This document shows positions 26,040 to 47,432 of a stretch of 64,000 bases of DNA, in pieces. Both the position numbers and the translations under genes were made by a program. Origin of the DNA: Bacilli bacterium (lineage in GTDB: Bacteria > Bacillota > Bacilli > Alicyclobacillales > SLC66); the NCBI GenBank assembly GCA_013044175.1, contig JABEUY010000055.1, forward strand, positions 30,228-94,227, written 5' to 3'. Numbering within the stretch: the stretch's first letter is position 1; the number at the start of each line of letters is the position of its first letter. The notes below the pieces were generated by a model. That model saw only the letters and a program-made list of their open reading frames with translations. It had not been told where the DNA came from and ran no database searches.

Positions 26040-28541
26040 ATGCCTAAAACCGATGATTTTTGGGATCAAAGCCGTGACGAATGGGCAGCAATTAATCAAG
26101 TCGATTTGACGGATAATGACTTATTCAAATGGCAAGAAGTGGTATTACGCGAACTTCAAGAAATAACCAACAAGGAGGGCACACAATCGGAGGTAAGCCG
26201 GGCAACTCGCGAAGCGCAGTTATCGACTCTGATCGCCACTCATAAAGACATCCCAATCAAGGTCAGACGCTCAATCGTAGTGTCACTCTTGGATGACATG
26301 TTTAGCTTCGGACCGCTGCAATCGTTGTGGAACGATTCAAAAATATCAGACATGCAGGTTTTCGTACCAACAGACAACCGAGAAACACAGATCATCACGT
26401 ACAGCAGTGCCGCTGGTCGCCGGGTTTACGATGGCGCAGGGTTTAGGGACTATGGGCATGTCATGACATGGTTGAATCGCCATTTGGCGCAGTTTGGACA
26501 GCATTATGACGCTGCGAAAGTGAGCATGGATGCGGTGTTTCCAAATGGTGAGAGAATGCACGTGATCACTGGCGTGTCAGGCTATTCAACATTTCGACGT
26601 GATGCGAACGGTGAAATGTCGTACCATTTTGTGCCCTGCGTGATTATCACCATGCGGAGATTTACCAATGCCTTTACGCTTGGCGACCTGACAGCACGAT
26701 CACCTTCACTGGCAGCCGTACCGCAGTTTTCAGACTTGCGCGAGGTCAAAAAGTCGTACACACGCAAGACGCTGTACACGCAGTATGATGGTCGCAGCCT
26801 TGATCCTGCCACCATCGACTATTTAAAAATCATCGTTCAAATGGCGAAAAACCACGTCATCAGTGGAGGCACAGGCTGCCATGATGCCGATGCACCGATC
26901 TTGATGTTTGACGGATCAACAAAACGTGCTGCTGATGTGCAGTTAGGCGATCAGTTAATGGGATCAGATAGTACACCAAGAACGGTGGTTGACCTGCACC
27001 GTGGCGTGGATCGGATGGTAAGAGTGATACCAAACAAGGGTGAACCGTTCGTTGTGAACGAGGGGCATGTTTTATCACTTAAAACAACGCCTAAAGAGGT
27101 TGGAGACACGCGCAAGACGCGAAGTATAACGATTGCGGAGTATCGCGGGCAGCACAAAAAATTCAAGCATCTGCACAAATTATGGCGTACAGACATCGAA
27201 TTTGCGTCAAAAAACTTACTAATCGAGCCTTACTTTTTAGGTTTATTATTGGGGGACGGTTCGATAGGTAATCACAGGGTCGCTATGTGCAGTCCTGATC
27301 CAGAGATTATTCAACGTGTGTATGACGAAGCAAGAATAAGAGGGTTACATGTAAGGGTAAACGGATATGGCACTAGCCGTGATTACTATATCTGTTCCGA
27401 TGTGAAAGGTGAGTATCACAAGAACAATTTGATCTATGATCTAAAAGCATTAGGGCTTTATGGAACTCACGCAGGAGATAAGTTTATCCCTACCATCTAC
27501 AAAACTGCATCACGACAGCAAAGACTAGAATTGTTGGCAGGGCTTCTAGACACAGACGGTAGTTGGGGTGGCGGCGGGTATGACTACATTACGAAATCGG
27601 AGCAGTTAGCTACAGACATACAGTTTTTGAGCCGTAGTTTAGGCTTTAGTACGAGTATTAGTAAGTGTAACAAGGGGTTTACTAGATCAGATGGCACGAA
27701 GTTTGTCGGACAATATTTTAGATTATGTGTTAGTGGCAATTGTGAACAAATCCCCTGCAAAGTCGCGCGTAAAAAGGGGACTGTGAGGCAGCAGAAAAAA
27801 GATGTGCTAGTGACTGGTTTTACCCTTGAAGATGTAGGCTATGGCAACTATTACGGTTGGGAATTGGACGGAGATCATCTTTATTTAGATGGTCAGTTTA
27901 TCGTTCATCACAATAGTGGAAAATCCAGTCTCGCAAATGCCCTGACCGCAGAAATTCCAGATGGCACACTGCTCATCGTGTTAGAAGAGGCGCCAGAGCT
28001 GCAACCGCAGAACACCGATCACGCGATCCGTATTGTCCAGCGTGAGGGTGTTTTCGATTTGTCTGATGCGATGAAAGCTACGTTGAGAATGTACCCTGAC
28101 CGCATTTTCATTGCAGAACTGCGGGACACACTGGCTTACACGTTCCTTCGCGCCATACAGAGCGGACACAGTGGATCTTCCACGACGGTCCACGCAAACT
28201 CGTGCCGTGATGCCATTGATGTGGTGATCAATTTTGCCGCCAATCATGAATCCCACCCGCCACGTGACATGGTTCGAGATATCCTGTTTCGGCAGGTACA
28301 CACGCTCATCCATGCCGAGGCGGTCAAGAAACCAGATGGCATTGCTCGTATGATTGACGAAGTGGTGCAACTTTTGCCTAATCAGACGCTGCATACGGTC
28401 GCGCAATATCATCAGGTCGGAATCAACGAGGACGGCACAGTGGCTGGGTACTTCGAATTCAATGGTCCTACAGACGCGTTCATTCAGGAAATGTTTGACG
28501 CTGGTATCGAAATACCGAAATCTTGGGGGTGGACCGTATGA
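26040..28541 (+). CDS. cpaF: CpaF/TadA/VirB11-family secretion ATPase interrupted by an intein
   Basis: The exteins join to GGTG|SGKSSLANAL (Walker A). Downstream motifs: IVLEEAPEL, RMYPDRIFIAELRD, QSGHSGSSTTVHAN. Confidence 0.85.
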   Translation: MPKTDDFWDQSRDEWAAINQVDLTDNDLFKWQEVVLRELQEITNKEGTQSEVSRATREAQLSTLIATHKDIPIKVRRSIVVSLLDDMFSFGPLQSLWNDSKISDMQVFVPTDNRETQIITYSSAAGRRVYDGAGFRDYGHVMTWLNRHLAQFGQHYDAAKVSMDAVFPNGERMHVITGVSGYSTFRRDANGEMSYHFVPCVIITMRRFTNAFTLGDLTARSPSLAAVPQFSDLREVKKSYTRKTLYTQYDGRSLDPATIDYLKIIVQMAKNHVISGGTGCHDADAPILMFDGSTKRAADVQLGDQLMGSDSTPRTVVDLHRGVDRMVRVIPNKGEPFVVNEGHVLSLKTTPKEVGDTRKTRSITIAEYRGQHKKFKHLHKLWRTDIEFASKNLLIEPYFLGLLLGDGSIGNHRVAMCSPDPEIIQRVYDEARIRGLHVRVNGYGTSRDYYICSDVKGEYHKNNLIYDLKALGLYGTHAGDKFIPTIYKTASRQQRLELLAGLLDTDGSWGGGGYDYITKSEQLATDIQFLSRSLGFSTSISKCNKGFTRSDGTKFVGQYFRLCVSGNCEQIPCKVARKKGTVRQQKKDVLVTGFTLEDVGYGNYYGWELDGDHLYLDGQFIVHHNSGKSSLANALTAEIPDGTLLIVLEEAPELQPQNTDHAIRIVQREGVFDLSDAMKATLRMYPDRIFIAELRDTLAYTFLRAIQSGHSGSSTTVHANSCRDAIDVVINFAANHESHPPRDMVRDILFRQVHTLIHAEAVKKPDGIARMIDEVVQLLPNQTLHTVAQYHQVGINEDGTVAGYFEFNGPTDAFIQEMFDAGIEIPKSWGWTV
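26877..27914 (+). mobile_element. 346-aa intein with LAGLIDADG homing endonuclease, inserted in the Walker A P-loop
   Basis: Starts with Cys (CHDADAPILMFDGS). Block B is NEGHVLSL. LAGLIDADG motifs are LLGLLLGDGSI and LLAGLLDTDGSW. Ends in VHHN, followed by Ser +1. Confidence 0.85.
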
Positions 28542-29386
28542 TTCAGATGTTATTTATCTTGGTGCCCGCGTTGATGATCGTTGCATATCTGACCTTCGAG
28601 CACTTCAAAACAGCCCCGGTCGCGCGTTTGCAGAAGCGGCTTGGCGTTAAACGCAAGCGAGGCAAGGGTATGCAGTCGCTGCATAACCTGTTCACCGCCA
28701 AGAGGCAGCTGACCTACATCACCATTGGATCGGTTGTCGCCGGGATTTATATTGCAGTCGCCATGCTGCATGCCACACCATTTATTGGAGCAATCGGTGG
28801 CGGTGTTCTTCCGTACCTGATATCTGAAGCGTGGAAAGAACGCTGGCTGGATCGTTACGAGGCTGGCGTGGTACAAGCCTTGGAGTATGGGGCTGGAATT
28901 TTTAAAACTGGCGCAACCGTTGAGCAATGGGTGCGCGAAGTAGGTTCGGAGGTCGAAGGATCAATTGTTACGGTTTTTGAAAGAGGCAAATACCAAGTCG
29001 AGTCTGGACAATTTGGCGTGGTCGATTGGCTTAAATATACAGCCGAGACAACACCAAGCAAATTTTTTAGCTATGTGCTCTACGGTCTAATCGCCAATTA
29101 CGAGCAAGCGTCTAGCCTACAAACGTACATGCAGGAGACCCTCGCGGAGATCAACCATCGAAAAAAATACGAGCGCGTCATGAGGCAGCAGCGCGATGAG
29201 GCGATGAAACTTCTGGTGGCTATATCGCTTGCCCCGGTCGCGTTATACGCCATGTTTGCTGGAGCAATCAATGGCTACCTAGCTACCAATCTCACCCAAA
29301 ACCTGATCTTCGGTGTTGGCTTGCTGGGCTATGTCATCCTCTTGTTGTTCGCGAGAAAAACTGCATCCGCGAAGCCTAAAGTATGA
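28538..29386 (+). CDS. tadB: TadB-like type II secretion system F-domain membrane protein
   Basis: ATGA overlap with the cpaF stop. TM - soluble - TM architecture, positioned after CpaF. Confidence 0.6.
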   Translation: MIQMLFILVPALMIVAYLTFEHFKTAPVARLQKRLGVKRKRGKGMQSLHNLFTAKRQLTYITIGSVVAGIYIAVAMLHATPFIGAIGGGVLPYLISEAWKERWLDRYEAGVVQALEYGAGIFKTGATVEQWVREVGSEVEGSIVTVFERGKYQVESGQFGVVDWLKYTAETTPSKFFSYVLYGLIANYEQASSLQTYMQETLAEINHRKKYERVMRQQRDEAMKLLVAISLAPVALYAMFAGAINGYLATNLTQNLIFGVGLLGYVILLLFARKTASAKPKV

Positions 29387-29799
29387 TCAACATACTCTGG
29401 CTTTCCATGCTTGCTGTCGTTCTGGTCGCCGCCATCACGGATTACAGATGGCAGATCATCCCCAACCGCCTTGTCAGAGCGGGTGTCCTGATTGCCCTTG
29501 TCGAGCATACCGCTTGGCAGGGGCTTTATGGTTTAGGAGTTACGCTTGCAGTCTGGGCATTGTGCCTCATAATCGGCTTTGCCCTCTGGCGTGTTGCCCC
29601 GGTCGGTGCAGGTGACATCAAACTTTTGGCTATGATGGCGGCTTTTGTAGGTGCGGGGAACATGCTCTCGATCCTGATTCTCGCACTCGTATTGCAGCTA
29701 CTGGCGCGAATCATTCGAGCAAGACGCGGGTTTTCAATGGCGTTTGCACCTGCCCTCATGGTCGGTAGCCTGTTAGTATTCTGGTATCTCTTCCCATAG
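29383..29799 (+). CDS. A24-family prepilin peptidase (CpaA/TadV-like)
   Basis: 138 aa, polytopic. Two Asp motifs: AAITDYRWQIIPN and GAGDIKLLAMM. ATGA overlap with the upstream gene. Confidence 0.75.
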   Translation: MINILWLSMLAVVLVAAITDYRWQIIPNRLVRAGVLIALVEHTAWQGLYGLGVTLAVWALCLIIGFALWRVAPVGAGDIKLLAMMAAFVGAGNMLSILILALVLQLLARIIRARRGFSMAFAPALMVGSLLVFWYLFP

Positions 29800-29929: not shown

Positions 29930-30484
29930 ATGGCTGGTCAAAGGGTTGGATATATCAGGGTTAGTACAGACGAGCAAAATCGAGAAAGGCAGCTTGATGG
30001 TGTGTCACTGGATAAGGTTTTCAGCGAGGCAAAATCTGGTAAGAATACAGATCGTCCGCAGCTTCAAGCCATGTTGCAATACGTCCGCGAAGGGGACACG
30101 GTGACCGTGCATAGCATCGACCGCCTAGCGAGGAATCTGGATGACCTACGCAAGTTGGTGTTTGATCTGACAGGGCGTGGTGTGAGGGTTGAATTTTTGA
30201 AAGAGAATCTGGTTTTTGACACAACCGACTCACCTTGGAAAACGATGTTTCTAACGATGACAGGCATGTTTGCCGAGTTCGAGAGGGCGATAAATCGTGA
30301 ACGTCAACGTGAAGGTATCGAGCTTGCGAAAAAGCGTGGCGCATACAAGGGTCGCAAACGTGTTTTGACCAAGCCACAGGTTCTAACGATAAGGCAAAGA
30401 TTGGCAAATGGCGAGTCGGTCACAGCATTGGCGCAGGAATTAAGAGTCAGCAGAATGACGATTTACAACTACCTGAACGCCTAA
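29930..30484 (+). CDS. serine recombinase (resolvase/invertase family)
   Basis: VGYIRVSTDEQNRERQ catalytic-Ser motif and a C-terminal HTH (SVTALAQELRVSRMTIYNY). 184 aa. Confidence 0.9.
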   Translation: MAGQRVGYIRVSTDEQNRERQLDGVSLDKVFSEAKSGKNTDRPQLQAMLQYVREGDTVTVHSIDRLARNLDDLRKLVFDLTGRGVRVEFLKENLVFDTTDSPWKTMFLTMTGMFAEFERAINRERQREGIELAKKRGAYKGRKRVLTKPQVLTIRQRLANGESVTALAQELRVSRMTIYNYLNA

Positions 30485-30529
30485 ATTTGTCCTACCCGAC
30501 CCCTTTCTAACATAGAGAGGGGTGTTTTT
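30483..30529 (+). promoter_or_regulatory. ICE intercistronic box-hairpin module, copy 7
   Basis: Box AAATTTGTCCTAC overlaps the stop codon; stem ACCCCTTTCT/AGAGAGGGGT; TTTTT; ATG 30530. Confidence 0.7.
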
Positions 30530-31402
30530 ATGCTCAACTTGGTGAACAAGGAACAAGAATTGTTCGAGGATCGTACCATGCGTGATCGGTTGGCGACACA
30601 GGTAGATGTGTTGGAACGCGTGAAAGCCTTAGCCACATTACCTGATGGGTTGAATGTAACGGTTGAAATGGCTGCAAATTATTACGAGGTTGGTAAACAG
30701 GCAATCGTCAGCCTGATTTATGATAACCGCTTGGAGCTTGAAGAGGATAAGTTGAGACTTCTAACAGGTGATGAACTGAATTCCTTTAAGGAAGTGGGTG
30801 TGATTCCCAAAAACACAGCGTCACTCACACTCATTCCCCGCCGTGCTCTCCTACGAATCGGCATGCTCTTACGTGACAGCGAGATTGCCAAAACCGTGCG
30901 TAACTACTTGCTGAACGTTGAAGAAACCGCGAGAGCCGAAGCCCCGCAGGTGATTCAAAAAGCGTTGACGAAAACGAGTCACCGCATGGCTTGGGGTGCT
31001 GTTCGCAATGCCATCAAGCAGAAAACACAGATTGGTATCATGATTGGGCTGACTCCTGCAATGGCTTCACTTATCGCTATGGAGGATACGGAAAAAGAGT
31101 TTGGCACAGACTTGTCCTCATTCAAGCGTCAAATCCGTGAAGAGGGTACGGACACCACCTACACACCCACCGATATTGGCAAGCGACTGGACCCGCCCTT
31201 GTCTGCGGTAAAGGTCAACGCGCTCTTGGAAACGTTGGGCTTTCAGGTGCGGACCGTCGAGAAGGAATGGACGCTGACGGAAAAAGGACAGCCTTACGCA
31301 CGACTCATGCCTGTACAGATCAATCATGCAACACGCGGCGTGGAAACCACCAAATATATGATACGGTGGAAGGAAAGCATCATAAGTCTGTTACGAGCCT
31401 AA
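30530..31402 (+). CDS. putative DNA-binding / antirepressor-like protein (paralog of 15987..16790)
   Basis: See 15987..16790. The N-terminal domain is conserved and the C-terminal half is divergent. Confidence 0.5.
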   Translation: MLNLVNKEQELFEDRTMRDRLATQVDVLERVKALATLPDGLNVTVEMAANYYEVGKQAIVSLIYDNRLELEEDKLRLLTGDELNSFKEVGVIPKNTASLTLIPRRALLRIGMLLRDSEIAKTVRNYLLNVEETARAEAPQVIQKALTKTSHRMAWGAVRNAIKQKTQIGIMIGLTPAMASLIAMEDTEKEFGTDLSSFKRQIREEGTDTTYTPTDIGKRLDPPLSAVKVNALLETLGFQVRTVEKEWTLTEKGQPYARLMPVQINHATRGVETTKYMIRWKESIISLLRA

Positions 31403-31448
31403 ATTGTCCTACCAGCCCCTTCTCTTTCATAAGAGAGGGGGCATTTTA
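31401..31448 (+). promoter_or_regulatory. ICE intercistronic box-hairpin module, copy 8
   Basis: Box AAATTGTCCTAC overlaps the stop codon; stem GCCCCTTCTCT/GAGAGGGGGC; ATG 31449. Confidence 0.7.
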
Positions 31449-32084
31449 ATGAGCAGACGACGACCACACAAAGACACAACTGTAAAAATTGGGCAGGTAG
31501 GTGAGCAGATCGTTGCCGCTTCCATTCGAAGATATTTGCAGAGCGATGCCTTGCGGACGTACAACAACGTCTATTTCCGGGATGAGCGAGGGAATCCGTT
31601 CCAAATTGATCATCTGGCATTGACTCCACAAGGTTTAATTGTCGTTGAGACGAAGCACTGGGCGGGAATGGTTTGGGGTGGCGAGTCAGAGCGCAATTGG
31701 AGTTACCTACCGAATGGCAGATATTGCTACACGCGGCAGTTCTACAGCCCGGTCCTACAAAATCGAACGCATGTCCAGAAGTTGAAACGCGTATTGGACA
31801 ATGACTTAAAAATGGCATCACTAGTCGTTTTTGGTAATCCTACGGTCACGCTGAACCTGAAAGGTGTGGAGGGCGTGTACACGCTGGCGGGGTTCGAAGC
31901 TGCACTGGAATCCATTCAGAAGATGGAGGCTATTTACGATCAAGCGGCACTGGCATTTTGGCACGAGCGGATCATGAGCAGTCGATTTGTAGACTTCGCG
32001 GGCATGTCAGAGCAGCTTGAATATGCCCAGAATGCGAAAAATCTGGGCTGCTATGTCGCACACAAGCAGGGGCTGCGCACATGA
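31449..32084 (+). CDS. NERD (nuclease-related domain) protein
   Basis: GEQIVAASIRRYL..FQIDHLALTPQGLIVVETKHWAG pattern. Confidence 0.65.
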   Translation: MSRRRPHKDTTVKIGQVGEQIVAASIRRYLQSDALRTYNNVYFRDERGNPFQIDHLALTPQGLIVVETKHWAGMVWGGESERNWSYLPNGRYCYTRQFYSPVLQNRTHVQKLKRVLDNDLKMASLVVFGNPTVTLNLKGVEGVYTLAGFEAALESIQKMEAIYDQAALAFWHERIMSSRFVDFAGMSEQLEYAQNAKNLGCYVAHKQGLRT

Positions 32085-32314
32085 AAACCACGCAGAGCAT
32101 ATACAGCTCGTTTTGTCGGCAGTACGAGTTTACAGAGCAGGAAGCAGCCAAGTTTCTGTCAGGGCGAGTCAATCGGACAGTCGTATACGACATGCTGGCG
32201 ACGACAGCGGCGGCTTTAGGACCGTCAGGACTGCAAGAACTAGAGGCTATTCTTGGCGAGTACGACTATTCACTGCCGCCAAGGGGTGTATTGGGAAGGT
32301 GGCACAAACTATGA
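32081..32314 (+). CDS. hypothetical protein
   Basis: 77 aa. ATGA overlaps at both ends suggest translational coupling. Confidence 0.45.
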   Translation: MKTTQSIYSSFCRQYEFTEQEAAKFLSGRVNRTVVYDMLATTAAALGPSGLQELEAILGEYDYSLPPRGVLGRWHKL

Positions 32315-33260: not shown

Positions 33261-33470
33261 ATGTCGAAAAACAACAAAGGTTTGATTTGGGTTGAAGAAG
33301 TCCTGATGGCATGTGTAGTCGTGTTTGGCTTGTGGGGTGCGATTAAGGGCGCATGGATTGCGCTATTGATTGTAGCGGCGGCGGTTGTAGCTATGGTGAG
33401 ACAGTACAAGATTTTGAAATCCTTGGATGTCGAGGATGAGGACGAGGGGGAGGACAACGAAGATGAATAA
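33261..33470 (+). CDS. candidate Flp/type IV prepilin
   Basis: MSKNNKG|LIWVEEV: Gly followed by Glu at +5, then a hydrophobic helix. Acidic C-terminal tail DVEDEDEGEDNEDE. Confidence 0.45.
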   Translation: MSKNNKGLIWVEEVLMACVVVFGLWGAIKGAWIALLIVAAAVVAMVRQYKILKSLDVEDEDEGEDNEDE

Positions 33471-33687
33471 GCTCAATAGGCTGTCCCTGCGCCTCTATGT
33501 ATGGTATTTGACGCGCAGACCGAACAAGACCGTTTTTGGCTGGAATCAGTTGATGGACTTGGGTATCGTCATTGGGCTGCTGTTCGTATTCGTTCAAAAC
33601 AATGCCACATTGGGGACTCTGTTTACTACCATTACTACCGCAGTACAGACAGAACTTACCAAACTCATTACCACGAACACGCTGTAA
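33463..33687 (+). CDS. small membrane protein
   Basis: 74 aa with one TM. Overlaps the upstream gene by 8 nt. Confidence 0.4.
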   Translation: MNKLNRLSLRLYVWYLTRRPNKTVFGWNQLMDLGIVIGLLFVFVQNNATLGTLFTTITTAVQTELTKLITTNTL

Positions 33688-42201: not shown

Positions 42202-43532
42202 ACATAAACATGAAGGATAAGCTGTTACAAAGAGGCAAGGAAAAGGTAAAGCAGAAAATTGTAGATCACGCCAAAGATGGCATGTCAGAGGAAGTCCAAG
42301 AAACTGTTGATAAGTTTGCTGAAAAGATCGGTGACGCGATTGATGCTGCCAAAATCGCGTCACAAGCCGCGACCGGAAACGTTGTCGGTGCGGTAGTCAC
42401 AACATTAAAAAACAAGCGGTTCCGCAAGGTATTGCTAGTCCTGCTGGCTGTCGCGGTTGCCGTATGGTTGCTGTCGATGGTGTTAATGATGAGCATAATC
42501 ATGGGTGCTGTGGGTTTATTCCAGCACCCCATGATGTCGTTCGGAACGAGTCAGAGCATTACCGAGGTGGAGCCGAATGGTCAGCGCATCAACATATCCT
42601 TTATATCACTTGCCAACGCGTGGACTAAGACGATCCGCTGGGATGGTCACACCGGGTTGACAGCCGCAGAGATTGCACAGGTCACCAGTCAACAACTCAA
42701 TTTGTCTTATGGGTTGCTCGAAACGTTCTATGAGATCGGTGTCCGTCAAGGTGCGGCGAATCCGGTTAAGTCACTGGGCTACGTGGTTCAGCAGCTAGAG
42801 CCTAGTGAGATCAGCTTTGTACCAGTGCAGCTACGCAAAGTCGGTTATTCAAAGGGCAAAAAGTTTTACTACTACGTCACCGAGCAGGTTTTGAAGGATA
42901 TCACAAGATACAATGGTCACTGGGTTACGCACTACCAGATCATCACCGAGTCAAATGGTTCACAAATTGTCTCATCCCAGCCGCCCACGCTACAACGCAA
43001 GGACTATCAGCCTTTGTATCGAGCGGAACAGGCGTTCGACATCCATCAAGACTTGCTGGATCAGCAAACATTTTTCGGACAGGCACTGGTGTTAGACCCC
43101 AACTTCTACGATCCCAACGCATTACCGGCTTTACAAATGCTGGAAGGTGGCAGCACGAGCAGTTCTGGCAGCAGTACCCCGCCGAGTTCTGGCGTACCGA
43201 TGCCGAAACCGCAGATAATCGCGGTCCTGCAGGAAGCCATTGTCATTGATCGCGTACCACAGTCATGGCTACCGTATCTCGAAATCATCGTTGGGCATGA
43301 GGATGGTTCAGGCAATCCAGACGCAGTCGATCCGATCTTGGTGGACGGTGAGAACGCGAGTGGACTCATGCAGATGCTGCCGAGCACCTTTTGGAGTGAT
43401 CATGTTTCAGGCTACAACGACATTTGGAATCCGTTAGACAATGCGGTATCAGCCATCAACCATATCAAGGGTGCATGGGGTAGTCCTACAAATATCCCCG
43501 GCGTGGTCAGTGGAACGTATACAGGCTACTAA
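42198..43532 (+). CDS. membrane-anchored cell-wall hydrolase with C-terminal lytic transglycosylase (SLT) domain (VirB1 analog)
   Basis: GHEDGSGNPDAV .. ASGLMQMLPSTF motif. One TM near the N-terminus. Confidence 0.7.
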   Translation: MNINMKDKLLQRGKEKVKQKIVDHAKDGMSEEVQETVDKFAEKIGDAIDAAKIASQAATGNVVGAVVTTLKNKRFRKVLLVLLAVAVAVWLLSMVLMMSIIMGAVGLFQHPMMSFGTSQSITEVEPNGQRINISFISLANAWTKTIRWDGHTGLTAAEIAQVTSQQLNLSYGLLETFYEIGVRQGAANPVKSLGYVVQQLEPSEISFVPVQLRKVGYSKGKKFYYYVTEQVLKDITRYNGHWVTHYQIITESNGSQIVSSQPPTLQRKDYQPLYRAEQAFDIHQDLLDQQTFFGQALVLDPNFYDPNALPALQMLEGGSTSSSGSSTPPSSGVPMPKPQIIAVLQEAIVIDRVPQSWLPYLEIIVGHEDGSGNPDAVDPILVDGENASGLMQMLPSTFWSDHVSGYNDIWNPLDNAVSAINHIKGAWGSPTNIPGVVSGTYTGY

Positions 43533-43614: not shown

Positions 43615-43637
43615 CCTTGAAGCCACATAGCAGCAAC

Positions 43638-43681
43638 AAAATTGTCATACCACCCCTTCTCAATCGAGAGGGGGTTCTTTC
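43638..43681 (+). promoter_or_regulatory. ICE intercistronic box-hairpin module, copy 14
   Basis: Box AAAATTGTCATAC; the stem is identical to copy 13 (ACCCCTTCTC/GAGAGGGGGT); GTG 43682. Confidence 0.65.
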
Positions 43682-43984
43682 GTGGCAAAGATCGCGTTTC
43701 TGTGTGTGGATGAAAGCATGGCGACATGGATCATAAATGAGTCAAAATCCTTTACCTTTACCGCGCAAATCGGTAATGACAAGTCAGCCGATGCTTATAT
43801 TGCGATGGCTATGCACGATGAAGATATTGACAAATACCTGCCTATCGTACAAGACCAGATGTTTGCATGGTTCGGCGTATCTAACGATGTCGTAAAAGCT
43901 CTTAAGCCGTTCGAGTTTGCGACTTGGGATGAAATATCAGATGGCGATGCAGTTTTACAGTGCGCCGAACGCATGAGTCAGTAG
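43682..43984 (+). CDS. hypothetical protein
   Basis: 100 aa. Start inferred from module spacing. Confidence 0.45.
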   Translation: MAKIAFLCVDESMATWIINESKSFTFTAQIGNDKSADAYIAMAMHDEDIDKYLPIVQDQMFAWFGVSNDVVKALKPFEFATWDEISDGDAVLQCAERMSQ

Positions 43985-44044
43985 ATCGATGCGGCACGTG
44001 CAGCTGCCAAGCCATCTAAAACGATCAAGGTTCCAAAATTACGT

Positions 44045-44677
44045 GTGTCCAAGCGGGATGAAATCGCAGACGAAGATAGCGGCGAGATTGAAATCATTGA
44101 GGACGCAGAGCCAATGCCATCCTACGCAATCGCCGTTGCAGGGTTGCCGGGAGCTGGAACCAGTTTTGTTGCATGGAATTTGGCAGTAGTTATGGGTTTG
44201 ACACTGCTCGAAGGAGTCAAGACCGGATCATTGTCAACTTGGACAGGCGACTCAACAACTGTCCAACAAGCCTTGGACGAGACTTTACCGCTGGGCACGG
44301 TAGTGGATGACGATTACAGTATTGACAGCATCATGGCAAGGCGCGTGATCGTGGACTGCGGGGCAGATCGGCTGCATTCGATATTTGTACGAGCCAAAAC
44401 GAGAATCTGGGTGACTCGACTCGATCCGGTGCAACCGCCGATTCCTGCGCGGGCGTTGGTAGTGGTAAATCGCGTACCGCAGAATCTGCCGTTTGACGTG
44501 CGAGAAGTCGTCAAAACCAAGATCGCACTGACCATACCGGATGGCGGTTTAGACGTGGTCTTGTCAATGTTTACCCACCGGGCTTGGATCACCAGTCAAG
44601 ATCGAGAGATACAGGAAAAATGGAAATCTTTAGTCAGCACGAAGGGAGATGGGGATAAATGGGACAGTATTGGCTAG
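44045..44677 (+). CDS. degenerate ParA/CpaE-like protein (P-loop lysine absent)
   Basis: AVAGLPGAGTSFVAWNLAVV resembles the deviant Walker A of CpaE/MinD but lacks the KGG..GK(T/S) residues. Confidence 0.4.
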   Translation: MSKRDEIADEDSGEIEIIEDAEPMPSYAIAVAGLPGAGTSFVAWNLAVVMGLTLLEGVKTGSLSTWTGDSTTVQQALDETLPLGTVVDDDYSIDSIMARRVIVDCGADRLHSIFVRAKTRIWVTRLDPVQPPIPARALVVVNRVPQNLPFDVREVVKTKIALTIPDGGLDVVLSMFTHRAWITSQDREIQEKWKSLVSTKGDGDKWDSIG

Positions 44678-45954
44678 TCGTGCCAAATGACGAATACCCT
44701 GATTTAGCGGTCAATTTTGAGGTTCTAGGTGACGTACAAATCGCAAGGATAGCAGACGAGATCAAGGGTGTCGTGAGCACATACGGACTACCGGGTGCAA
44801 TCGTACTAGGTGTGCCAGTGGCTGGGCTGGACAAGCGTGTGGCATGGTTTCGTCATAATTTGCCAGATGCTAGGCTGTACTTGGCAGGTACAATATCACC
44901 GTTTGCCTTGGCTGGATTGGATATTTCAGGTGTTCTGACCGTTCCGTTGCCCGCTGAATTTGTGAAAGCCGAGAGATCAGGCGAACCGGAGCACGCAGTT
45001 GCACTGCGCATTCAAACGCCAGTCACCACCACCGAACCTGCACCATTGTTGGAACCGACAGGCAAGGATCAGATAATTATGGTCTTTAGCGGTAAGGGCG
45101 GCGAAGGTAAAACCACCGTAGCGGCACAGCTTGGGGTGCTGCTTGCCAAACGCGGCATATCCACACTCATCATTGATGCGGACTACAAGGGTAATCAAGC
45201 CGAGTGGTTCCGAGGCAATGGGCAACCGCCAATACACAGCATTTTGGATTTTCGCGGACGTGGTGACTACAGCGATCGCGCCACGATTGAGAGCTTTTTG
45301 ATTGTGAGAGATGGACTAAAAATTTTACCGTGTCCTCAAACCGAGTCTGGACCAGTGCCATCCGAGGTCTTGGACCGTGCAATTCGAGCGTACAAGCCGT
45401 ATTACTCGATCATCATACTGGACATGCACCAAGGGCTTTCACCGGAACTGCTCACGGCTGCCAAATACGCCAACAAATACGTGGCAGTGACCTTACCGAG
45501 TGACCGCAGATTGTTGTCCTTCGCGACAACCTTGAACCAATTACTTACCCATAAAATTTCCAAGAAGAACCTGCATATCGTGGTCAACCGCGCACATCAT
45601 GGCGAGGCAGACAGCAAAAAAGTTCGTGCTGGGCTGCATGACATTTTGGGCGATGGTTATTCGATGAATTACCACGTATTACCTTATTGTGAGGATTTGA
45701 GTGTCGATGATGATCCTGACTTTGTACCTATTGTGGATATGCGCGGTTCGGAGGCGTATCCTGCCGCATTTATCAAGTTCGCGGAGGCGTTGACCGGGCT
45801 TAAACTGCGCAGCGGTAAAGGCAAGTCGCCTGATAAGCCGGGCGGTAAACCGAGTGGTAAAGCCAAGCCAAGCGGGTTTTTAAGCGGACTGTTCGGCGGT
45901 GGCAAAAAGAAACCTGCCAAGAAAGCAACTAAAGGAGGTAAGGCACGTGGCTAA
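44659..45954 (+). CDS. cpaE: CpaE/TadZ-like ParA/MinD-family ATPase
   Basis: VFSGKGGEGKTTVAAQLG deviant Walker A and LIIDAD. Receiver-like N-terminal domain and a basic K/G-rich tail. Confidence 0.7.
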   Translation: MGQYWLVVPNDEYPDLAVNFEVLGDVQIARIADEIKGVVSTYGLPGAIVLGVPVAGLDKRVAWFRHNLPDARLYLAGTISPFALAGLDISGVLTVPLPAEFVKAERSGEPEHAVALRIQTPVTTTEPAPLLEPTGKDQIIMVFSGKGGEGKTTVAAQLGVLLAKRGISTLIIDADYKGNQAEWFRGNGQPPIHSILDFRGRGDYSDRATIESFLIVRDGLKILPCPQTESGPVPSEVLDRAIRAYKPYYSIIILDMHQGLSPELLTAAKYANKYVAVTLPSDRRLLSFATTLNQLLTHKISKKNLHIVVNRAHHGEADSKKVRAGLHDILGDGYSMNYHVLPYCEDLSVDDDPDFVPIVDMRGSEAYPAAFIKFAEALTGLKLRSGKGKSPDKPGGKPSGKAKPSGFLSGLFGGGKKKPAKKATKGGKARG

Positions 45955-46708
45955 ACGAAAAATCTTGAAGGATCGTCCGGGCGTTGTCTGGTTGCTGGGA
46001 CTCGCGGCTATCGGTCTTGCCACGGCGTATGTGGCAATATCCTCCATTCATGGAGCCGAAAAAATGGTGGTGGTACTTACGGCTGCCAGTACGATACCTG
46101 CGGATACCGTGATCACCAGTGCCGAGGTCACGAGCACGAGCATTTCCGCGTCCGTGGTCCCGCCAAACGCAGTGCAAAACTCACAAGCCATTGTCGGCAA
46201 ATATGCAGATGCCACCATTGCACAGGGAGAGCCGATCTTACAATCAGTTGTTGCACCCGCCACCACCGTTCGCCAGTTGGTGCGCACGTATGGAATGAAT
46301 TTTGTAGGCGCAACGGTGCAACTTGATCCCGCCGACTTGCCGATTACAGATGTGAATCCGGGCGATTTGGTGGATTTGATTGGCGTATATGGCACTCAAA
46401 ACCAGCAGGTCTATACACAGTGGATTGCGCAAGGTGTTCCGGTTCTTGCTATCGACACCACCAATACCAAGATCGTACTTGCCATTCCGCAAGCCGATGC
46501 ACTAGCGTTGGTCAGGGATTTAACGACAGGCAAGGTGCGCGTCATGCTAGACCCGCAGCCGTTTAACGCTGCGAACATGTTTAGGACACAGACGAGTACG
46601 AGCAATGCGTTGCCGAGTGTTAAGGCGGTAAAGGCGGTCAAGGCAGTAAAAACGGTCAAATCTGTGCAGAGTGTTAAGGTGGTCAAGGCAGTCAAGACTA
46701 AAAAATAG
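45947..46708 (+). CDS. cpaB: CpaB/RcpC-like Flp pilus assembly protein (SAF domain)
   Basis: GTG 45947 lies 8 nt after an AAAGGAGG RBS. N-terminal TM, then a SAF-like segment (IPADTVITSAEV..GKYADATIAQGEPIL). C-terminal (VKA)n repeat. Confidence 0.65.
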   Translation: MAKRKILKDRPGVVWLLGLAAIGLATAYVAISSIHGAEKMVVVLTAASTIPADTVITSAEVTSTSISASVVPPNAVQNSQAIVGKYADATIAQGEPILQSVVAPATTVRQLVRTYGMNFVGATVQLDPADLPITDVNPGDLVDLIGVYGTQNQQVYTQWIAQGVPVLAIDTTNTKIVLAIPQADALALVRDLTTGKVRVMLDPQPFNAANMFRTQTSTSNALPSVKAVKAVKAVKTVKSVQSVKVVKAVKTKK

Positions 46709-46749
46709 TCCCCCAAGCCCTTCTCTAGTACACAGAGAGGGGCTTTTTT
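46702..46749 (+). promoter_or_regulatory. ICE intercistronic box-hairpin module, copy 15
   Basis: Box AAAATAGTCCCCC contains the TAG stop; stem AAGCCCTTCTCT/AGAGAGGGGCTT; TTTT; ATG 46750. Confidence 0.7.
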
Positions 46750-46917
46750 ATGTCTGATATTCCGTATTTCTTCAAATCGCCAGATGAGCCGCAGCTAAAG
46801 GCTATTTTGTCATTCTACGAGCAGGACAAGTTGCACGAGGTATTTACAGCCAGCCGCGACGAGTGCCGGGAATGGAGCGACGAGTTTCTAGCGGCGAGAC
46901 AGGAACAGGAGGAATGA
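46750..46917 (+). CDS. small hypothetical protein (55 aa)
   Basis: Starts at the module-defined ATG. Its TGA overlaps the next ATG (ATGA). Below the ORF-track length cutoff. Confidence 0.45.
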   Translation: MSDIPYFFKSPDEPQLKAILSFYEQDKLHEVFTASRDECREWSDEFLAARQEQEE

Positions 46918-47432
46918 TAGCCGTGTTTTTGAAGGAACTGGAAGCCGTAATATTGCCGTGGTGGTTGTTGGCGGTATTGCTCACTGGGGATGCAGGGGCG
47001 TGGCACTACCCGCTACTAATCGCCGCGCTCTACATCGTATTCACAGAAATTCGCTACCGTATGGCAGTACAGGAAAGCCGATCCACAGGCTTTCAACGCA
47101 TGATGCGTATGCCGATTGCACCTTGGCTTTTACGCGCTGTCTTGTGGCGGCGAATGACAATCCCGCGTGGGATGAAGTGCTACACGATTCATGTGCATGG
47201 TGCGCCTGAATCAGCTAAGGGCTTTGTCCGGGAACTTCGAGCGGATATGGCAGTAGCCAATCGTGAGCAAGCCGTTTATGTCGGCAACACGTTTTACGAT
47301 CTAGGCGAGTGGGCTGTACGGCAGTTGGGGCAGGAGCGAGTGCAGATCACAGATGGGGCGTTGTTTGGGCGATGGTTGCAGACTTGGAAAGCACCTGATG
47401 AACTTTGGAGAATCATAATAATAAACACATAG
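46914..47432 (+). CDS. membrane hypothetical protein
   Basis: MIAVFLKELEAVILPWWLLAVLL. Coupled start inside ORF 46863. Confidence 0.45.
   Translation: MIAVFLKELEAVILPWWLLAVLLTGDAGAWHYPLLIAALYIVFTEIRYRMAVQESRSTGFQRMMRMPIAPWLLRAVLWRRMTIPRGMKCYTIHVHGAPESAKGFVRELRADMAVANREQAVYVGNTFYDLGEWAVRQLGQERVQITDGALFGRWLQTWKAPDELWRIIIINT

What the first reader, a model, noticed from the sequence alone, without database searches (positions are those of the whole stretch)
26040..47432. A complete Tad/Flp pilus gene set interleaved with a Gram-positive-type T4SS core in one gene train
The following genes lie on one strand and share the same punctuation motif.

Tad set:
- CpaF/TadA ATPase (26040..28541)
- TadB (28538..29386)
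- A24 prepilin peptidase (29383..29799)
- TadC (32311..33189)
- Flp-like prepilin (33261..33470)
- a degenerate and an intact CpaE/TadZ (44045..44677, 44659..45954)
- CpaB/RcpC (45947..46708)

T4SS core, placed among them:
- VirB2-like 2-TM protein (36454..36834)
- TcpE/VirB3-like protein (36882..37466)
- VirB4 (37506..39911)
- VirB6-like protein (39955..42201)
- SLT hydrolase (42198..43532)
- coupling-protein-like ATPase (55107..57710), after a cargo insertion

The characterised Gram-positive conjugation machines (Tn916, ICEBs1, pCF10, pIP501 and pCW3 types) use adhesins and have no pilus. Type IVb pili are known mating aids only in Gram-negative systems such as R64 and PAPI-1. A Tad pilus genetically fused into a monoderm-type T4SS operon would therefore be an unusual mating-pair-formation architecture.
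Basis: partly seen in the sequence, partly recalled or inferred. Interest (0 to 1): 0.7.

Follow-up and report, generated by a model that had tools for sequence, protein, structure and literature searches.

The report
Tad pilus genes wired into Gram-positive conjugation operon
A mobile element in an acid-loving Bacillus relative carries pilus-building (Tad) genes and a minimal DNA-transfer (type IV secretion) machine in one gene train, and the two sets have been inherited together across several Bacillales families, which suggests an untested, pilus-assisted form of Gram-positive gene transfer.

Summary
On the + strand between about 20.6 and 57.7 kb lie a Tad-type set and a monoderm T4SS core.

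- **Tad set:** a CpaF/TadA ATPase, TadB, an A24 peptidase, TadC, a CpaE/TadZ pair and CpaB/RcpC.
- **T4SS core:** a small 2-TM protein, TcpE/VirB3, VirB4, a VirB6-like protein, an SLT hydrolase and a distal VirD4/HerA-like ATPase.

- The CpaF gene is long because a 347-aa LAGLIDADG intein sits in its Walker A motif.
- The ORF called "Flp prepilin" has no Flp signature. The next ORF is a better but unproven pilin candidate.
- The "degenerate CpaE" is also split by an in-frame TAG.
- No relaxase or VirB8-like protein is recognisable.

The pairing is not an accident of this window. It recurs in Sulfoacidibacillus thermotolerans, Alicyclobacillus acidocaldarius plasmid pAACI02, Paenibacillus sp. 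HGH0039, and very probably Brevibacillus (both genes on one contig), plus metagenomic contigs. Tad and VirB4 identities track each other (r 0.91–0.99). The interleaved order here is a derived rearrangement of a "T4SS then contiguous Tad" order.

Annotation-level precedents exist (Sulfobacillus pY0017/pL15, Cutibacterium acnes plasmids). I found no functional test of a Tad role in Gram-positive conjugation. Verdict: a new variant of a known kind, of moderate to high interest.

The parts
7603..7679 (+). tRNA-Pro, last gene of a six-tRNA cluster (7155-7679). It is followed by a terminator and is the probable integration site of the element.
   Evidence: ARAGORN; Rfam; GC rises from 42% to about 49% here.
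7760..8941 (-). Tyrosine integrase at the left end of the element.
   Evidence: Pfam Phage_integrase E 3.6e-31 plus Arm-DNA-bind_4 and SAM-like domains. A 59%-identical integrase lies near the HerA-like gene in L020.
17528..20494 (+). 988-aa secreted Gly/Ser/Thr/Asn-rich protein, probably beta-propeller-like. It is a candidate surface or adhesin protein conserved in the family.
   Evidence: Signal peptide visible in the sequence. 30% identical to the 990-aa 'pyrrolo-quinoline quinone' repeat protein of pAACI02. No Pfam hit.
20589..21056 (+). 155-aa protein with an N-terminal hydrophobic segment. TadE/TadG-like pseudopilin candidate.
   Evidence: Lies just upstream of cpaF in L006 and L010. N-terminus resembles the PF13400 'Tad' protein of the Paenibacillus relative. 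No HMM hit in the window.
24925..25425 (+). 166-aa protein with an N-terminal transmembrane segment that always accompanies the tad genes. Minor-pilin candidate.
   Evidence: Homologues lie next to the pilin-like ORFs or cpaF in L006, L008, L010, L013, L014 and pAACI02.
26040..28541 (+). CpaF/TadA-type secretion ATPase, interrupted by an intein at nt 26877-27917 in the Walker A motif.
   Evidence: Pfam T2SSE + Hom_end_hint + LAGLIDADG_3. The spliced extein best matches Caulobacter CpaF structures, E 1.8e-29, against VirB11 at 3.5e-21. An intein-free orthologue occurs in L006.
28538..29386 (+). TadB-like platform protein (T2SSF family).
29383..29799 (+). TadV-type A24 prepilin peptidase (138 aa).
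   Evidence: Pfam Peptidase_A24 E 6.8e-12. 35% identical to the A24 peptidases of the second Tad sets in pAACI02 and L019.
29930..32084 (+). Inserted cassette of a serine resolvase, a 290-aa protein (paralogue of 15978-16790) and a NERD nuclease. Not part of the machine.
   Evidence: Pfam. Absent from L006 and L013 between tadB and tadC; a NERD gene occupies the same place in L010.
32311..33189 (+). TadC-like platform protein (T2SSF family).
33261..33470 (+). 69-aa 2-TM protein with an acidic tail. It is conserved in the family but is not Flp-like.
   Evidence: No Flp hit. Gly at -1 is not conserved. Homologues occur in pAACI02 and Paenibacillus.
33463..33687 (+). 74-aa protein with a basic leader, G|WNQLMD, a hydrophobic helix and a short polar tail. 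The best pilin candidate in the window.
   Evidence: Alignment: the -1 residue is G or A in the window's closest relatives and R in loci that carry a separate KDRRG|FGHF-type Flp-like ORF. No HMM hit.
33796..34833 (+). ParM/Alp-type actin-like protein.
   Evidence: Pfam ALP_N + MreB-like_C. Conserved in L008, L013 and pAACI02.
34885..35508 (+). Stand-alone EAL domain protein (c-di-GMP phosphodiesterase type). Catalytic motifs are present.
   Evidence: Pfam EAL E 3.8e-36. Sequence motifs. Conserved with the tad genes as far as Paenibacillus and pAACI02.
35553..36438 (+). 100-aa protein and a YdjM-family membrane hydrolase that open the T4SS block.
   Evidence: Pfam YdjM E 2e-22. YdjM lies upstream of TcpE-VirB4 in many family loci where the flank is available, including several of the distant Paenibacillus and metagenomic relatives.
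36454..36834 (+). 126-aa protein with a signal peptide and a 2-TM hairpin (TcpD/VirB2-like by topology and position).
   Evidence: Sequences. No HMM hit.
36882..37466 (+). TcpE (VirB3-like) membrane protein.
   Evidence: Pfam TcpE above the gathering score.
37506..39911 (+). VirB4-family ATPase.
   Evidence: Pfam AAA_10 E 2e-29. Named 'conjugal transfer protein TraC' in nr.
39955..42201 (+). Polytopic VirB6-like membrane protein with a long low-complexity tail.
   Evidence: Pfam TrbL weak. NCBIfam CD3337/EF1877 family E 2.3e-9. Position conserved after VirB4 in nearly all family loci that extend past VirB4.
42198..43532 (+). Membrane-anchored SLT-type cell-wall hydrolase (VirB1-like).
   Evidence: Pfam SLT 22.1 bits against a cutoff of 21.3. 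61-63% identical orthologues in L006, L011 and L014.
43682..44677 (+). CpaE'/TadZ-like paralogue without the P-loop lysine. Here it is split by an in-frame TAG at 43982-43984.
   Evidence: Orthologues form single ORFs of 339-357 aa.
44659..45954 (+). CpaE/TadZ ParA/MinD-type ATPase.
   Evidence: Pfam CbiA, ParA and AAA_31. NCBIfam MinD and CpaE_hom_Actino.
45947..46708 (+). CpaB/RcpC (SAF domain) protein.
   Evidence: Pfam SAF and RcpC. TIGR03177 E 6.8e-15.
46863..47432 (+). 189-aa membrane protein conserved at the end of the tad genes.
   Evidence: tblastn 36-60% identity in L006, L008 and pAACI02.
47600..55060 (+). Low-GC cargo, not part of the machine: two C5 DNA methylases and a BpuJI-like endonuclease (48283-51785), then three secreted proteins.
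55107..57710 (+). 867-aa soluble ATPase of the HerA/VirB4/VirD4 superfamily. Candidate coupling protein.
   Evidence: NCBIfam CedD (VirD4-like) E 7e-11, partial match. Family members hit TraG-D_C in 9 of 15 and TrwB_AAD_bind in 5 of 15. AF2 model pLDDT 83.9 matches TrwK/VirB4, HerA, TrwB (target TM 0.58) and Cag-beta. For the 39,838- and 36,750-base contigs, VirB4 and this ATPase report identical longest-contig lengths; the 36,750 contig is confirmed (L008/L019).

Best explanation
**What it is**
The window holds most of a roughly 53-57 kb or larger integrative element of an acidophilic Bacillales bacterium. It is inserted beside a tRNA cluster. Its backbone is a composite DNA-transfer apparatus with two modules.

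1. A Tad-type (type IVc) pilus machine:
   - CpaF motor, which needs intein splicing;
   - TadB/TadC platform;
   - TadV peptidase;
   - TadZ/CpaE pair;
   - CpaB;
   - small pilin-like and pseudopilin-like proteins.
2. A minimal monoderm T4SS:
   - 2-TM TcpD/VirB2-like protein;
   - TcpE/VirB3;
   - VirB4;
   - VirB6-like channel protein;
   - SLT wall hydrolase;
   - a VirD4/HerA-like ATPase.

**How it most likely works (inferred)**
- The Tad machine extends a thin filament through the thick wall and retracts it. This captures a recipient cell and pulls it close.
- The role is the one the R64 thin pilus, the PAPI-1 pilus, or the Ups pili ahead of Ced transport play elsewhere.
- The T4SS channel then moves the DNA.
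- The co-conserved EAL protein probably ties pilus activity to c-di-GMP.

**Shown and inferred**
- Shown: gene identities, co-orientation, conservation and co-divergence of the two modules, and presence on both a plasmid and integrated elements.
- Inferred: filament production, its role in mating, and conjugative transfer itself.
For: **Gene identities:**

**Mobile-element context**
- An integrase lies beside the tRNA cluster.
- The same backbone sits on the circular plasmid pAACI02.
- One MAG carries three copies.

**Conservation of the pairing**
- L006/L012, L010, L008+L019 and L013 (S. thermotolerans Y002) keep the window's order.
- pAACI02, L028 and L029 have T4SS followed directly by CpaE'-CpaE-CpaB-CpaF-TadB-TadC-pilins-EAL.
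- Paenibacillus HGH0039 has the same Tad block about 11 kb downstream of the T4SS block on the same strand.
- VirB4 and the clade-specific CpaF report the same longest-contig length for at least 8 VirB4 clusters, so they probably share a contig.

**Clade specificity**
- CpaF homologues of 38% identity or more come only from this element family. The next best are generic CpaF at 28-30% or less.

**Co-divergence**
- Pairwise identity of VirB4 against TadC gives r = 0.98 (21 pairs). TadB gives 0.99, CpaE 0.95 and CpaB 0.91.

**Functional analogues**
- Type IV pili are needed for or aid transfer in R64 and PAPI-1.
- Ups pili together with Ced (VirB2/VirB6/VirB4/VirD4-like) mediate archaeal DNA exchange.

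**Recurrence elsewhere**
- Unrelated Gram-positive replicons show the same pairing: pY0017 and C. acnes plasmids.
Against: - No relaxase, oriT or VirB8-like protein is recognisable in the window or in relatives.
- MOB-suite types pAACI02 as non-mobilizable.
- No ORF matches the Flp or TadE models, and the candidate pilin's cleavage site is not conserved across the family.
- This copy shows wear: an in-frame stop in cpaE', an intein in cpaF, and insertions inside the tad genes.
- The element also encodes a large secreted protein that could act as a conventional adhesin.
- Tad loci on plasmids are usually read as adhesion or colonisation factors.
- The identity correlations use non-independent pairs.
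- No experiment anywhere links Tad to Gram-positive conjugation.
Confidence: 0.55

Rival explanations
1. The Tad genes are adaptive cargo. They would make an adhesion or biofilm pilus that helps the host colonise surfaces (for example minerals in acid environments), and would play no part in DNA transfer. The T4SS alone would do the mating, with surface proteins as adhesins.
For: - Plasmid-borne tad loci are generally interpreted as colonisation factors, for example in C. acnes.
- CpaF-bearing plasmids are common in rhizobia.
- The element encodes a large secreted repeat protein and other secreted proteins.
- In Paenibacillus the Tad block lies about 11 kb from the T4SS block.
Against: - Cargo modules normally vary between related elements. 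Here the Tad set is present in every family member with enough sequence.
- It diverges in step with VirB4.
- It forms a CpaF clade not seen elsewhere.
- It stays in the same gene train through at least three rearrangements.
- True cargo in the window (restriction-modification genes, the resolvase/NERD cassette) is variable and differs in GC.
Confidence: 0.2
2. The apparatus is not a relaxase-driven conjugation system. It would be a different DNA-exchange or uptake machine, comparable to the archaeal Ups/Ced pair or to Tad-dependent transformation in Micrococcus, or else a protein-secretion device. The element would simply carry it.
For: - No relaxase is recognisable in about 53 kb of element or in the closed 87-kb pAACI02, which MOB-suite types as 'non-mobilizable'.
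- The best NCBIfam match of the distal ATPase is CedD, the VirD4-like ATPase of the archaeal DNA-import system.
- Tad genes are required for transformation in Micrococcus luteus, as cited.
Against: - The machine sits on an integrase-bearing element and on a plasmid, and occurs in multiple copies per genome. This fits self-transfer.
- Its nearest T4SS relatives (TcpE-VirB4-VirB6-hydrolase of Bacillus and Paenibacillus plasmids) sit beside relaxase and coupling-protein genes.
- Relaxases of Firmicutes are diverse and easily missed. My recollection, not checked here, is that pCW3 uses the atypical relaxase TcpM.
Confidence: 0.15
3. The T2SSE ATPase is simply the VirB11-type third ATPase of the T4SS, and the neighbouring genes do not build a pilus. 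At most, a Tad-derived platform would form a short pseudopilus or piston inside the wall as an integral part of the channel.
For: - NCBIfam ranks VirB11 (E 8e-28) slightly above a TadA subfamily for the intein-containing protein.
- VirB11-like ATPases occur in Gram-positive T4SS regions such as pAW63.
- No Flp-type pilin is detected.
Against: - The extein matches solved CpaF structures better than VirB11, 106 against 79 bits.
- It is followed by two T2SSF platform proteins and accompanied by an A24 peptidase, TadZ/CpaE and CpaB. None of these belongs to any VirB11-containing T4SS.
Confidence: 0.1

Closest known systems
Sulfobacillus thermotolerans plasmids pY0017 / pL15 (conjugation backbone with 'T4SS and T2SS' homologues)
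   Same: Both are Gram-positive acidophile replicons. Both have one co-directional train with a T2SSE ATPase, T2SSF proteins, small ORFs, ParM/StbA, a VirB6/TrbL-like protein, VirB4, an SLT hydrolase and an M50 peptidase.
   Different: - It is a different lineage: VirB4 about 23% identical (E 0.003) and CpaF 24%.
- pY0017 has a recognisable MOBP relaxase, a CD1115-type VirD4 and ArdC, and is typed as conjugative.
- The window family has none of these recognisable features, and it has CpaE'/CpaE/CpaB and TcpE instead.
- Neither system has been tested functionally.
Cutibacterium acnes linear plasmids (p15.1.R1, pIMPLE-HL096PA1, pTZC1 type)
   Same: A Gram-positive plasmid with a tad locus directly downstream of conjugation-type genes (VirB4, TcpC-like, FtsK-like). 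A pilin was detected at the surface, and the authors raised a possible link to DNA transfer.
   Different: The host is an actinobacterium and the plasmid is linear. The tad locus is read mainly as an adhesin. There is no evidence of relatedness to this family, and no intein, EAL or CpaE' features were described.
R64 (IncI) thin pilus and PAPI-1 pilus-dependent transfer
   Same: In both, a type IV filament machine encoded in the transfer region of a mobile element brings donor and recipient together. It is auxiliary in R64 and essential in PAPI-1.
   Different: Those hosts are diderm. The pili are type IVb (PilQ/R/S/V-type), not Tad. The T4SS classes are MPF_I/G, with relaxases and coupling proteins well defined.
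Sulfolobales Ups pili plus Ced DNA-transport system
   Same: The division of labour is the same: a type IV pilus aggregates cells, and a VirB2/VirB6/VirB4/VirD4-like set moves the DNA. No relaxase is known. Both live in acidophile habitats. The distal ATPase here has CedD as its best NCBIfam hit.
   Different: Ups and Ced are archaeal and chromosomal. Their genes are dispersed, induced by UV, and import DNA for repair. The similarity to CedD is partial and far below the family cutoff.
TcpE-VirB4-VirB6-hydrolase T4SS of Bacillus cereus-group and Paenibacillus plasmids (pCW3/Tcp-like monoderm T4SS)
   Same: The core order is the same: small TM protein, TcpE, VirB4, large polytopic protein, wall hydrolase. 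VirB4 is about 25% identical.
   Different: Those loci include a TcpC/VirB8-like protein, a replication-relaxation family protein and a TraM-recognition T4CP. They have no tad genes in the T4SS train; a lone SAF-domain gene lies on the opposite strand at the edge of the P. urinalis stretch. The window family lacks the first two and adds YdjM and the Tad set.

Membership tests
Tad (type IVc) pilus system | TadA/CpaF-clade secretion ATPase | tested here: met
   Pfam T2SSE. The extein best matches Caulobacter CpaF structures, 106 bits against 79 for VirB11. nr names it TadA. The NCBIfam ranking is ambiguous, with VirB11 slightly ahead.
Tad (type IVc) pilus system | Two paralogous T2SSF platform proteins (TadB, TadC) after the ATPase | tested here: met
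   Weak T2SSF hits in the window. 14 of 17 family members hit T2SSF, best E 2e-10. TadB and TadC profiles are homologous, E 3e-6.
Tad (type IVc) pilus system | TadZ/CpaE ParA/MinD-like ATPase | tested here: met
   CbiA/ParA/AAA_31 hits, an intact deviant Walker A, and CpaE_hom_Actino at E 1.3e-9. A P-loop-less paralogue also exists and is split by a stop codon here.
Tad (type IVc) pilus system | Dedicated A24 prepilin peptidase (TadV/CpaA) | tested here: met
   Peptidase_A24 E 6.8e-12, 138 aa.
Tad (type IVc) pilus system | Flp-type major pilin with a G/XXXXEY processing motif | tested here: not met
   No Flp_Fap or other pilin hit for 33261-33470 or 33463-33687, even at E <= 10. The -1 Gly is not conserved. 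Only a by-eye resemblance exists for 33463-33687. A KDRRG|FGHF-type ORF is present in relatives but absent from the window.
Tad (type IVc) pilus system | CpaB/RcpC | tested here: met
   SAF + RcpC. TIGR03177 E 6.8e-15, below its cutoff.
Tad (type IVc) pilus system | TadE/TadF/TadG-type pseudopilins | tested here: inconclusive
   There is no HMM hit in the window. The candidates 20589-21056 and 24925-25425 are syntenic with the tad genes. A PF13400 'Tad' protein occurs in the Paenibacillus relative.
Tad (type IVc) pilus system | Production of a filament | not testable with these tools
   Needs electron microscopy or labelling in a cultured carrier.
Monoderm conjugative T4SS (MPF_FA / MPF_FATA) | VirB4 ATPase | tested here: met
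   AAA_10 E 2e-29.
Monoderm conjugative T4SS (MPF_FA / MPF_FATA) | VirB3/TcpE-like and VirB6-like membrane proteins and a wall hydrolase next to VirB4 | tested here: met
   TcpE is above its cutoff. TrbL and the CD3337/EF1877 family hits are weak. SLT is at its cutoff. The order is conserved in nearly all loci that include these flanks.
Monoderm conjugative T4SS (MPF_FA / MPF_FATA) | VirB8-like (TcpC/NTF2-fold) component | tested here: not met
   No Pfam hit. TcpC-type proteins of pE33L466 and the P. urinalis plasmid give no tblastn match. Folds of the unknown ORFs were not examined.
Monoderm conjugative T4SS (MPF_FA / MPF_FATA) | Type IV coupling protein (VirD4 or TcpA) | tested here: inconclusive
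   The 55107-57710 ATPase belongs to the HerA/VirB4/VirD4 superfamily. Support comes from TraG-D_C and TrwB_AAD_bind hits in relatives, fold matches to TrwK, HerA, TrwB and Cag-beta, and the absence of an N-terminal TM segment.
Monoderm conjugative T4SS (MPF_FA / MPF_FATA) | Relaxase and oriT | tested here: not met
   None was found by Pfam or NCBIfam among the larger ORFs scanned (several short ORFs were not), nor by tblastn with replication-relaxation proteins. pAACI02 has no MOB type. The right end of the element may lie outside the window.
Monoderm conjugative T4SS (MPF_FA / MPF_FATA) | Assignment to an MPF class with CONJscan profiles or a VirB4 phylogeny | not testable with these tools
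   CONJscan/TXSScan profiles are not available here.
Integrative and conjugative element | Integrase at a boundary next to a tRNA gene, with a composition shift | tested here: met
Integrative and conjugative element | Flanking direct repeats (attL/attR) | tested here: inconclusive
   Only a 14-bp repeat, GTTACGAAAATGTC, at 7748 and 60328. About 0.15 such matches are expected by chance (my own estimate, 2,200 x 18,000 / 4^14, applied to the search).
pY0017/pL15-type Tad+T4SS backbone | Sequence relatedness of the core proteins | tested here: not met
   VirB4 23% (E 0.003), CpaF 24%, ParM 22%. The architecture is analogous, but the window is not a member of that family.

The most novel reading that the evidence does not exclude
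The Tad machine is an obligatory, co-evolved part of a Gram-positive DNA-transfer apparatus. This would be the first pilus-dependent conjugation system in monoderm bacteria. The pilus would either reel in recipients or act as a wall-spanning (pseudo)pilus coupled to a VirB4/VirB6 channel. Transfer would start with a relaxase of an unrecognised type, or with none. The result would be a bacterial counterpart of the archaeal Ups/Ced exchange system carried on plasmids and ICEs that current tools score as non-mobilizable.
Probability: 0.3. Interest if true: 0.8.

Novelty: new variant of a known kind. Interest (0 to 1): 0.6.

Why it matters
- **Textbook view.** Gram-positive conjugation is thought to rely on surface adhesins and to lack pili. 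Here a whole family of Bacillales plasmids and ICEs has kept a Tad pilus machine and a minimal T4SS together through deep divergence. That predicts pilus-assisted mating, or a Tad/T4SS chimeric conduit, in monoderms.
- **It can be tested.** Cultured carriers exist: Alicyclobacillus acidocaldarius DSM 446 (pAACI02), Sulfoacidibacillus thermotolerans Y002 and Paenibacillus sp. HGH0039.
- **A blind spot in typing tools.** These elements have no recognisable relaxase, and the one closed plasmid of the family (pAACI02) is typed 'non-mobilizable'. Gene flow in acidophilic and soil or gut Bacillales may therefore be underestimated.
- **Recurrence.** The same pairing appears in unrelated Gram-positive replicons (Sulfobacillus, Cutibacterium). 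This suggests a general solution that has been overlooked in T4SS classifications.

Tried and rejected
- **Plasmid DNA search.** Megablast of the 21.5-kb region against the plasmid collection gave no match. Protein-level search was needed.
- **Exact-protein look-ups.** These failed for the long VirB4 start, for P0010 and for P0028.
- **Apparent absence of Tad genes.** I first thought that distant VirB4 relatives (29-36% identity) lack Tad genes, because none lay within 10 kb. I rejected this after the CpaF search showed clade-specific CpaF apparently on the same contigs (same reported contig length), with the Tad block lying further downstream.
- **L014.** It has a T4SS core without tad genes within range. 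I considered it a natural Tad-less member. It carries a TnpB insertion and runs into unrelated genes at a contig end, so it is probably decayed or rearranged and is not decisive.
- **Metagenome scan.** It returned only three short loci, two of them informative.
- **Relaxase, VirB8 and T4CP searches.** I used proteins from pE33L466, the P. urinalis plasmid and pY0017. The only result was a weak T4CP match to the distal ATPase.
- **att site search.** It gave only a 14-bp repeat of doubtful significance.
- **Rfam.** No riboswitch was found (for example c-di-GMP), only tRNAs.
- **Pilin models.** Pfam at E <= 10 gave no Flp, TadE or VirB2 hit for any small ORF.
- **Structure prediction.** It was not attempted for the small pilin-like proteins. 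Homologues from loci cannot be submitted, and single-helix models give meaningless fold matches.

Full report
**Observation**

The + strand of the window carries a long co-directional gene train. The hits are listed in full under the observation check; here I note only the main scores.
- T2SSE-family ATPase (26040-28541).
- Two T2SSF-family proteins (28538-29386 and 32311-33189).
- A24 prepilin peptidase (29383-29799, E 7e-12).
- ParA/MinD-type CpaE (44659-45954).
- SAF/RcpC CpaB (45947-46708; TIGR03177 E 7e-15).
- TcpE (36882-37466, above Pfam's cutoff).
- VirB4/AAA_10 (37506-39911, E 2e-29).
- A polytopic protein with weak TrbL and CD3337/EF1877 hits (39955-42201).
- SLT hydrolase (42198-43532).

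The T2SSF hits are weak in the window, but 14 of 17 orthologues and paralogues from related loci hit T2SSF, best E 2e-10. The TadB and TadC profiles are homologous to each other, hhalign E 3e-6.

After the intein is removed, the ATPase matches solved Caulobacter CpaF structures (E 1.8e-29, 106 bits). That is better than Brucella VirB11 (3.5e-21, 79 bits). NCBIfam ranks VirB11 and a TadA subfamily almost equally.

**Corrections**

1. The cpaF gene is 833 codons long because a 347-aa intein (nt 26877-27917) splits the Walker A motif.
   - The junctions read GGTG|CHDAD...VHHN|SGKS.
   - It carries a Hint domain and two LAGLIDADG motifs.
   - The L006 orthologue reads GSTGVGKT with no insert.
2. 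A resolvase, a 290-aa protein and a NERD nuclease (29930-32084) are inserted between the peptidase and tadC.
   - Its apparent G|LIWVE site is not conserved in orthologues.
   - It is a conserved 2-TM protein with an acidic tail, also found in pAACI02 and Paenibacillus.
4. The overlapping next ORF (33463-33687) looks more like a Flp pilin by eye.
   - It has a basic leader, G|WNQLMD, a hydrophobic helix and a short polar tail.
   - It has no model support.
   - Its -1 residue is G or A only in the window's closest relatives. It is R in loci that carry a separate KDRRG|FGHF-type ORF, which the window lacks.
5. The "degenerate CpaE" lacks the P-loop lysine throughout the family. In the window it is also cut by an in-frame TAG at 43982-43984.
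6. The small 2-TM protein before TcpE has only topology and position in its favour.
7. The distal ATPase (55107-57710) is a soluble member of the HerA/VirB4/VirD4 superfamily.
   - Its best NCBIfam hit is CedD, a partial match (E 7e-11).
   - Relatives hit TraG-D_C (9 of 15) and TrwB_AAD_bind (5 of 15).
   - An AlphaFold model (pLDDT 83.9) matches TrwK/VirB4, HerA, TrwB (target TM 0.58) and Cag-beta.
   - "Coupling-protein-like" is therefore reasonable but not established.

It gives 10 hits on the + strand, none on the - strand, and 0.2 in shuffles.

**Context**

A six-tRNA cluster (7155-7679), a terminator and a tyrosine integrase (7760-8941, minus strand) mark the left end. GC rises there from 42% to about 49%. 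A 14-bp repeat at 7748 and 60328 could be the att core but is weak.

The exact VirB4 protein is on record from a Logan assembly and is named as coming from a "Bacilli bacterium". No relaxase or VirB8-like protein is recognisable in the window.

**Comparative evidence**

The VirB4 has only 16 clusters of relatives in the large protein collection. Loci with VirB4 at 61-80% identity keep the window's arrangement: cpaF-tadB-tadC-small ORFs-(ParM)-EAL, then YdjM-2TM-TcpE-VirB4-VirB6-like-(SLT), then cpaE'-cpaE-cpaB. These loci are:
- two copies in MAG JA4.bin15;
- an ENA contig;
- the cultured Sulfoacidibacillus thermotolerans Y002.

I first thought that more distant relatives in Paenibacillus and Brevibacillus (29-36%) lacked tad genes. 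A search with the CpaF extein then showed that homologues of 38% identity or more exist only in these same organisms. Beyond them, identity drops to 28-30% or less for generic CpaF.

Three gene orders occur.
- **Paenibacillus sp. HGH0039.** A contiguous M50-cpaE'-cpaE-cpaB-cpaF-tadB-tadC-...-EAL block lies about 11 kb downstream of the T4SS block on the same strand.
- **A. acidocaldarius DSM 446 plasmid pAACI02** (87 kb, circular). The T4SS block runs directly into cpaE'-cpaE-cpaB-cpaF-tadB-tadC-pilin-like ORFs-ParM-EAL. Two metagenomic contigs have the same order.
- **The window and its closest relatives.** The T4SS block sits between the cpaF...EAL block and the cpaE'...cpaB block. This interleaving is therefore a derived rearrangement of a "T4SS then Tad" train.

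Across 5-7 elements, pairwise identities of TadC, TadB, CpaE and CpaB track those of VirB4, with r = 0.98, 0.99, 0.95 and 0.91. The pairs are not independent. The result is what co-inheritance without module swapping predicts.

Some members (pAACI02 and L008+L019) carry a second, more divergent Tad-like set with its own A24 peptidase.

**Mechanism**

The best-supported reading is a composite transfer apparatus. A Tad-type machine would make the extracellular contact, and possibly retract. A minimal monoderm T4SS would be the DNA channel. The co-conserved EAL protein suggests c-di-GMP control.

This is inferred from three things:
- gene identity;
- the backbone-like behaviour of the tad genes, which are always present, co-diverge with VirB4 and form a clade of their own;
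- characterised analogues, namely the R64 thin pilus, PAPI-1 and Ups pili with the Ced system in Sulfolobales.

Nothing here shows a filament, excision or transfer.

The rivals are:
- tad as adhesion cargo;
- a non-conjugative DNA-exchange or uptake machine, supported by the absence of any relaxase and by MOB-suite typing pAACI02 as non-mobilizable;
- a VirB11-like or pseudopilus role for the ATPase.

**What is known**

A 2025 review of T4SS diversity lists pilus hybrids only for Gram-negative systems, and a T7SS hybrid for mycobacteria. The MPF classification papers do not mention Tad. The survey of type IV filament systems does not note a T4SS association.

Precedents do exist at annotation level.
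- **Sulfobacillus thermotolerans plasmids pL15/pY0017.** They were described as having a conjugation backbone with homologues of both T4SS and T2SS: a CpaF-like protein, TadB/C-like proteins, a MinD-like protein, StbA, VirB4 and a transglycosylase. The pY0017 record shows that train. Its proteins are only about 23% identical to those here, so it is a separate lineage. It has a MOBP relaxase and a VirD4.
- **Cutibacterium acnes linear plasmids.** They carry a tad locus next to VirB4, TcpC-like and FtsK-like genes.

I found no experiment that tests Tad in Gram-positive conjugation.

**Verdict**

Two claims are overstated: the completeness of both gene sets, and the lack of any precedent. I rate it a new variant of a known, poorly studied kind, with interest 0.6. 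Cultured carriers make the central question directly testable.

Noticed in passing
window 26877-27917: A full-length intein (347 aa; C1, terminal HN, +1 Ser, two LAGLIDADG motifs) is inserted in the Walker A motif of the CpaF/TadA ATPase. Some orthologues also carry a Hint domain (P0037, P0040 from S. thermotolerans, P0041). Others (L006, pAACI02, Paenibacillus) are intein-free.
   Followed up: partly
window 12217, 30501, 31418, 37477, 39928, 43655, 46719, 55079, 57725 (+ strand): A repeated hairpin CCCCTTCTC-loop-GAGAGGGGG is followed by a T-run and, 6-9 nt later, in eight of the nine listed copies, a start codon. The 3' arm doubles as the Shine-Dalgarno sequence, so the ribosome-binding site is sequestered in a terminator-like stem. 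There are no copies on the minus strand, and 0.2 are expected by chance. A stricter version of the pattern is absent from all related loci except L001 (the same contig) and L010.
   Followed up: partly
window 29930-32084 and 15978-16790: A serine resolvase, a 290-aa protein and a NERD nuclease are inserted inside the tad genes. The 290-aa protein is a 41%-identical paralogue of the 270-aa ORF at 15978-16790. In L010 a resolvase and a NERD gene sit at other positions of the same operon.
   Followed up: partly
window 43982-43984: An in-frame TAG splits the cpaE' (P-loop-less TadZ paralogue) gene, which is a single ORF of 339-357 aa in all relatives. It may be a pseudogene, a split gene or a sequencing error.
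   Followed up: yes
window 48283-51785: A low-GC (about 34%) cassette with two C5 cytosine methyltransferases flanking a BpuJI-like restriction endonuclease. It is followed by three secreted proteins (52509-55059) at about 41% GC. This is clearly later cargo between the tad/T4SS train and the distal ATPase.
   Followed up: no
window 9256-14708: A conserved accessory set: a DnaN-like clamp protein, a sigma-70 region-4 protein, a small M50 (site-2 protease-like) protein, and a DUF6011 + Amidoligase_2 protein. The amidoligase and M50 genes accompany VirB4 even in the distant Paenibacillus and Brevibacillus elements, there together with GGACT cyclotransferase genes.
   Followed up: partly
window 17528-20494: A 988-aa secreted repeat protein, probably a beta-propeller, conserved in pAACI02 (annotated as a PQQ repeat protein). 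A 975-aa ORF lies at a comparable position in L019, but its similarity was not detected. It may be a conventional adhesin, which bears on whether the pilus is needed for contact.
   Followed up: partly
window 60328-63932: A 14-bp repeat of the sequence at 7748 lies at 60328. Beyond it, a D5_N/DUF5906 primase-helicase is encoded on the minus strand (62409-63932). The element may end near 60.3 kb, with a second island following.
   Followed up: partly
L008+L019 (one ENA contig) and pAACI02 80.2-87.3 kb (L027): Some family members carry a second, divergent Tad-like set: CpaE, a SAF protein, a T2SSE ATPase, T2SSF proteins, an A24 peptidase and TadG-like proteins. The window's A24 peptidase is most similar to the peptidases of these second sets.
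   Followed up: partly
L010, L012, L014 (MAG JA4.bin15): One metagenome-assembled genome holds three diverged copies of the T4SS core (VirB4 75-80% identical to the window). One copy (L014) has a TnpB insertion and no tad genes within reach.
   Followed up: partly
window 57755-58561; L019 12560-12808; L020 3124-3411: The C-terminal part of the HSDR_N_2 protein downstream of the distal ATPase is 37% identical to the C-terminal domain of the longer (911-941 aa) ATPase orthologues. This suggests a domain duplication, fission or fusion at this junction.
   Followed up: no
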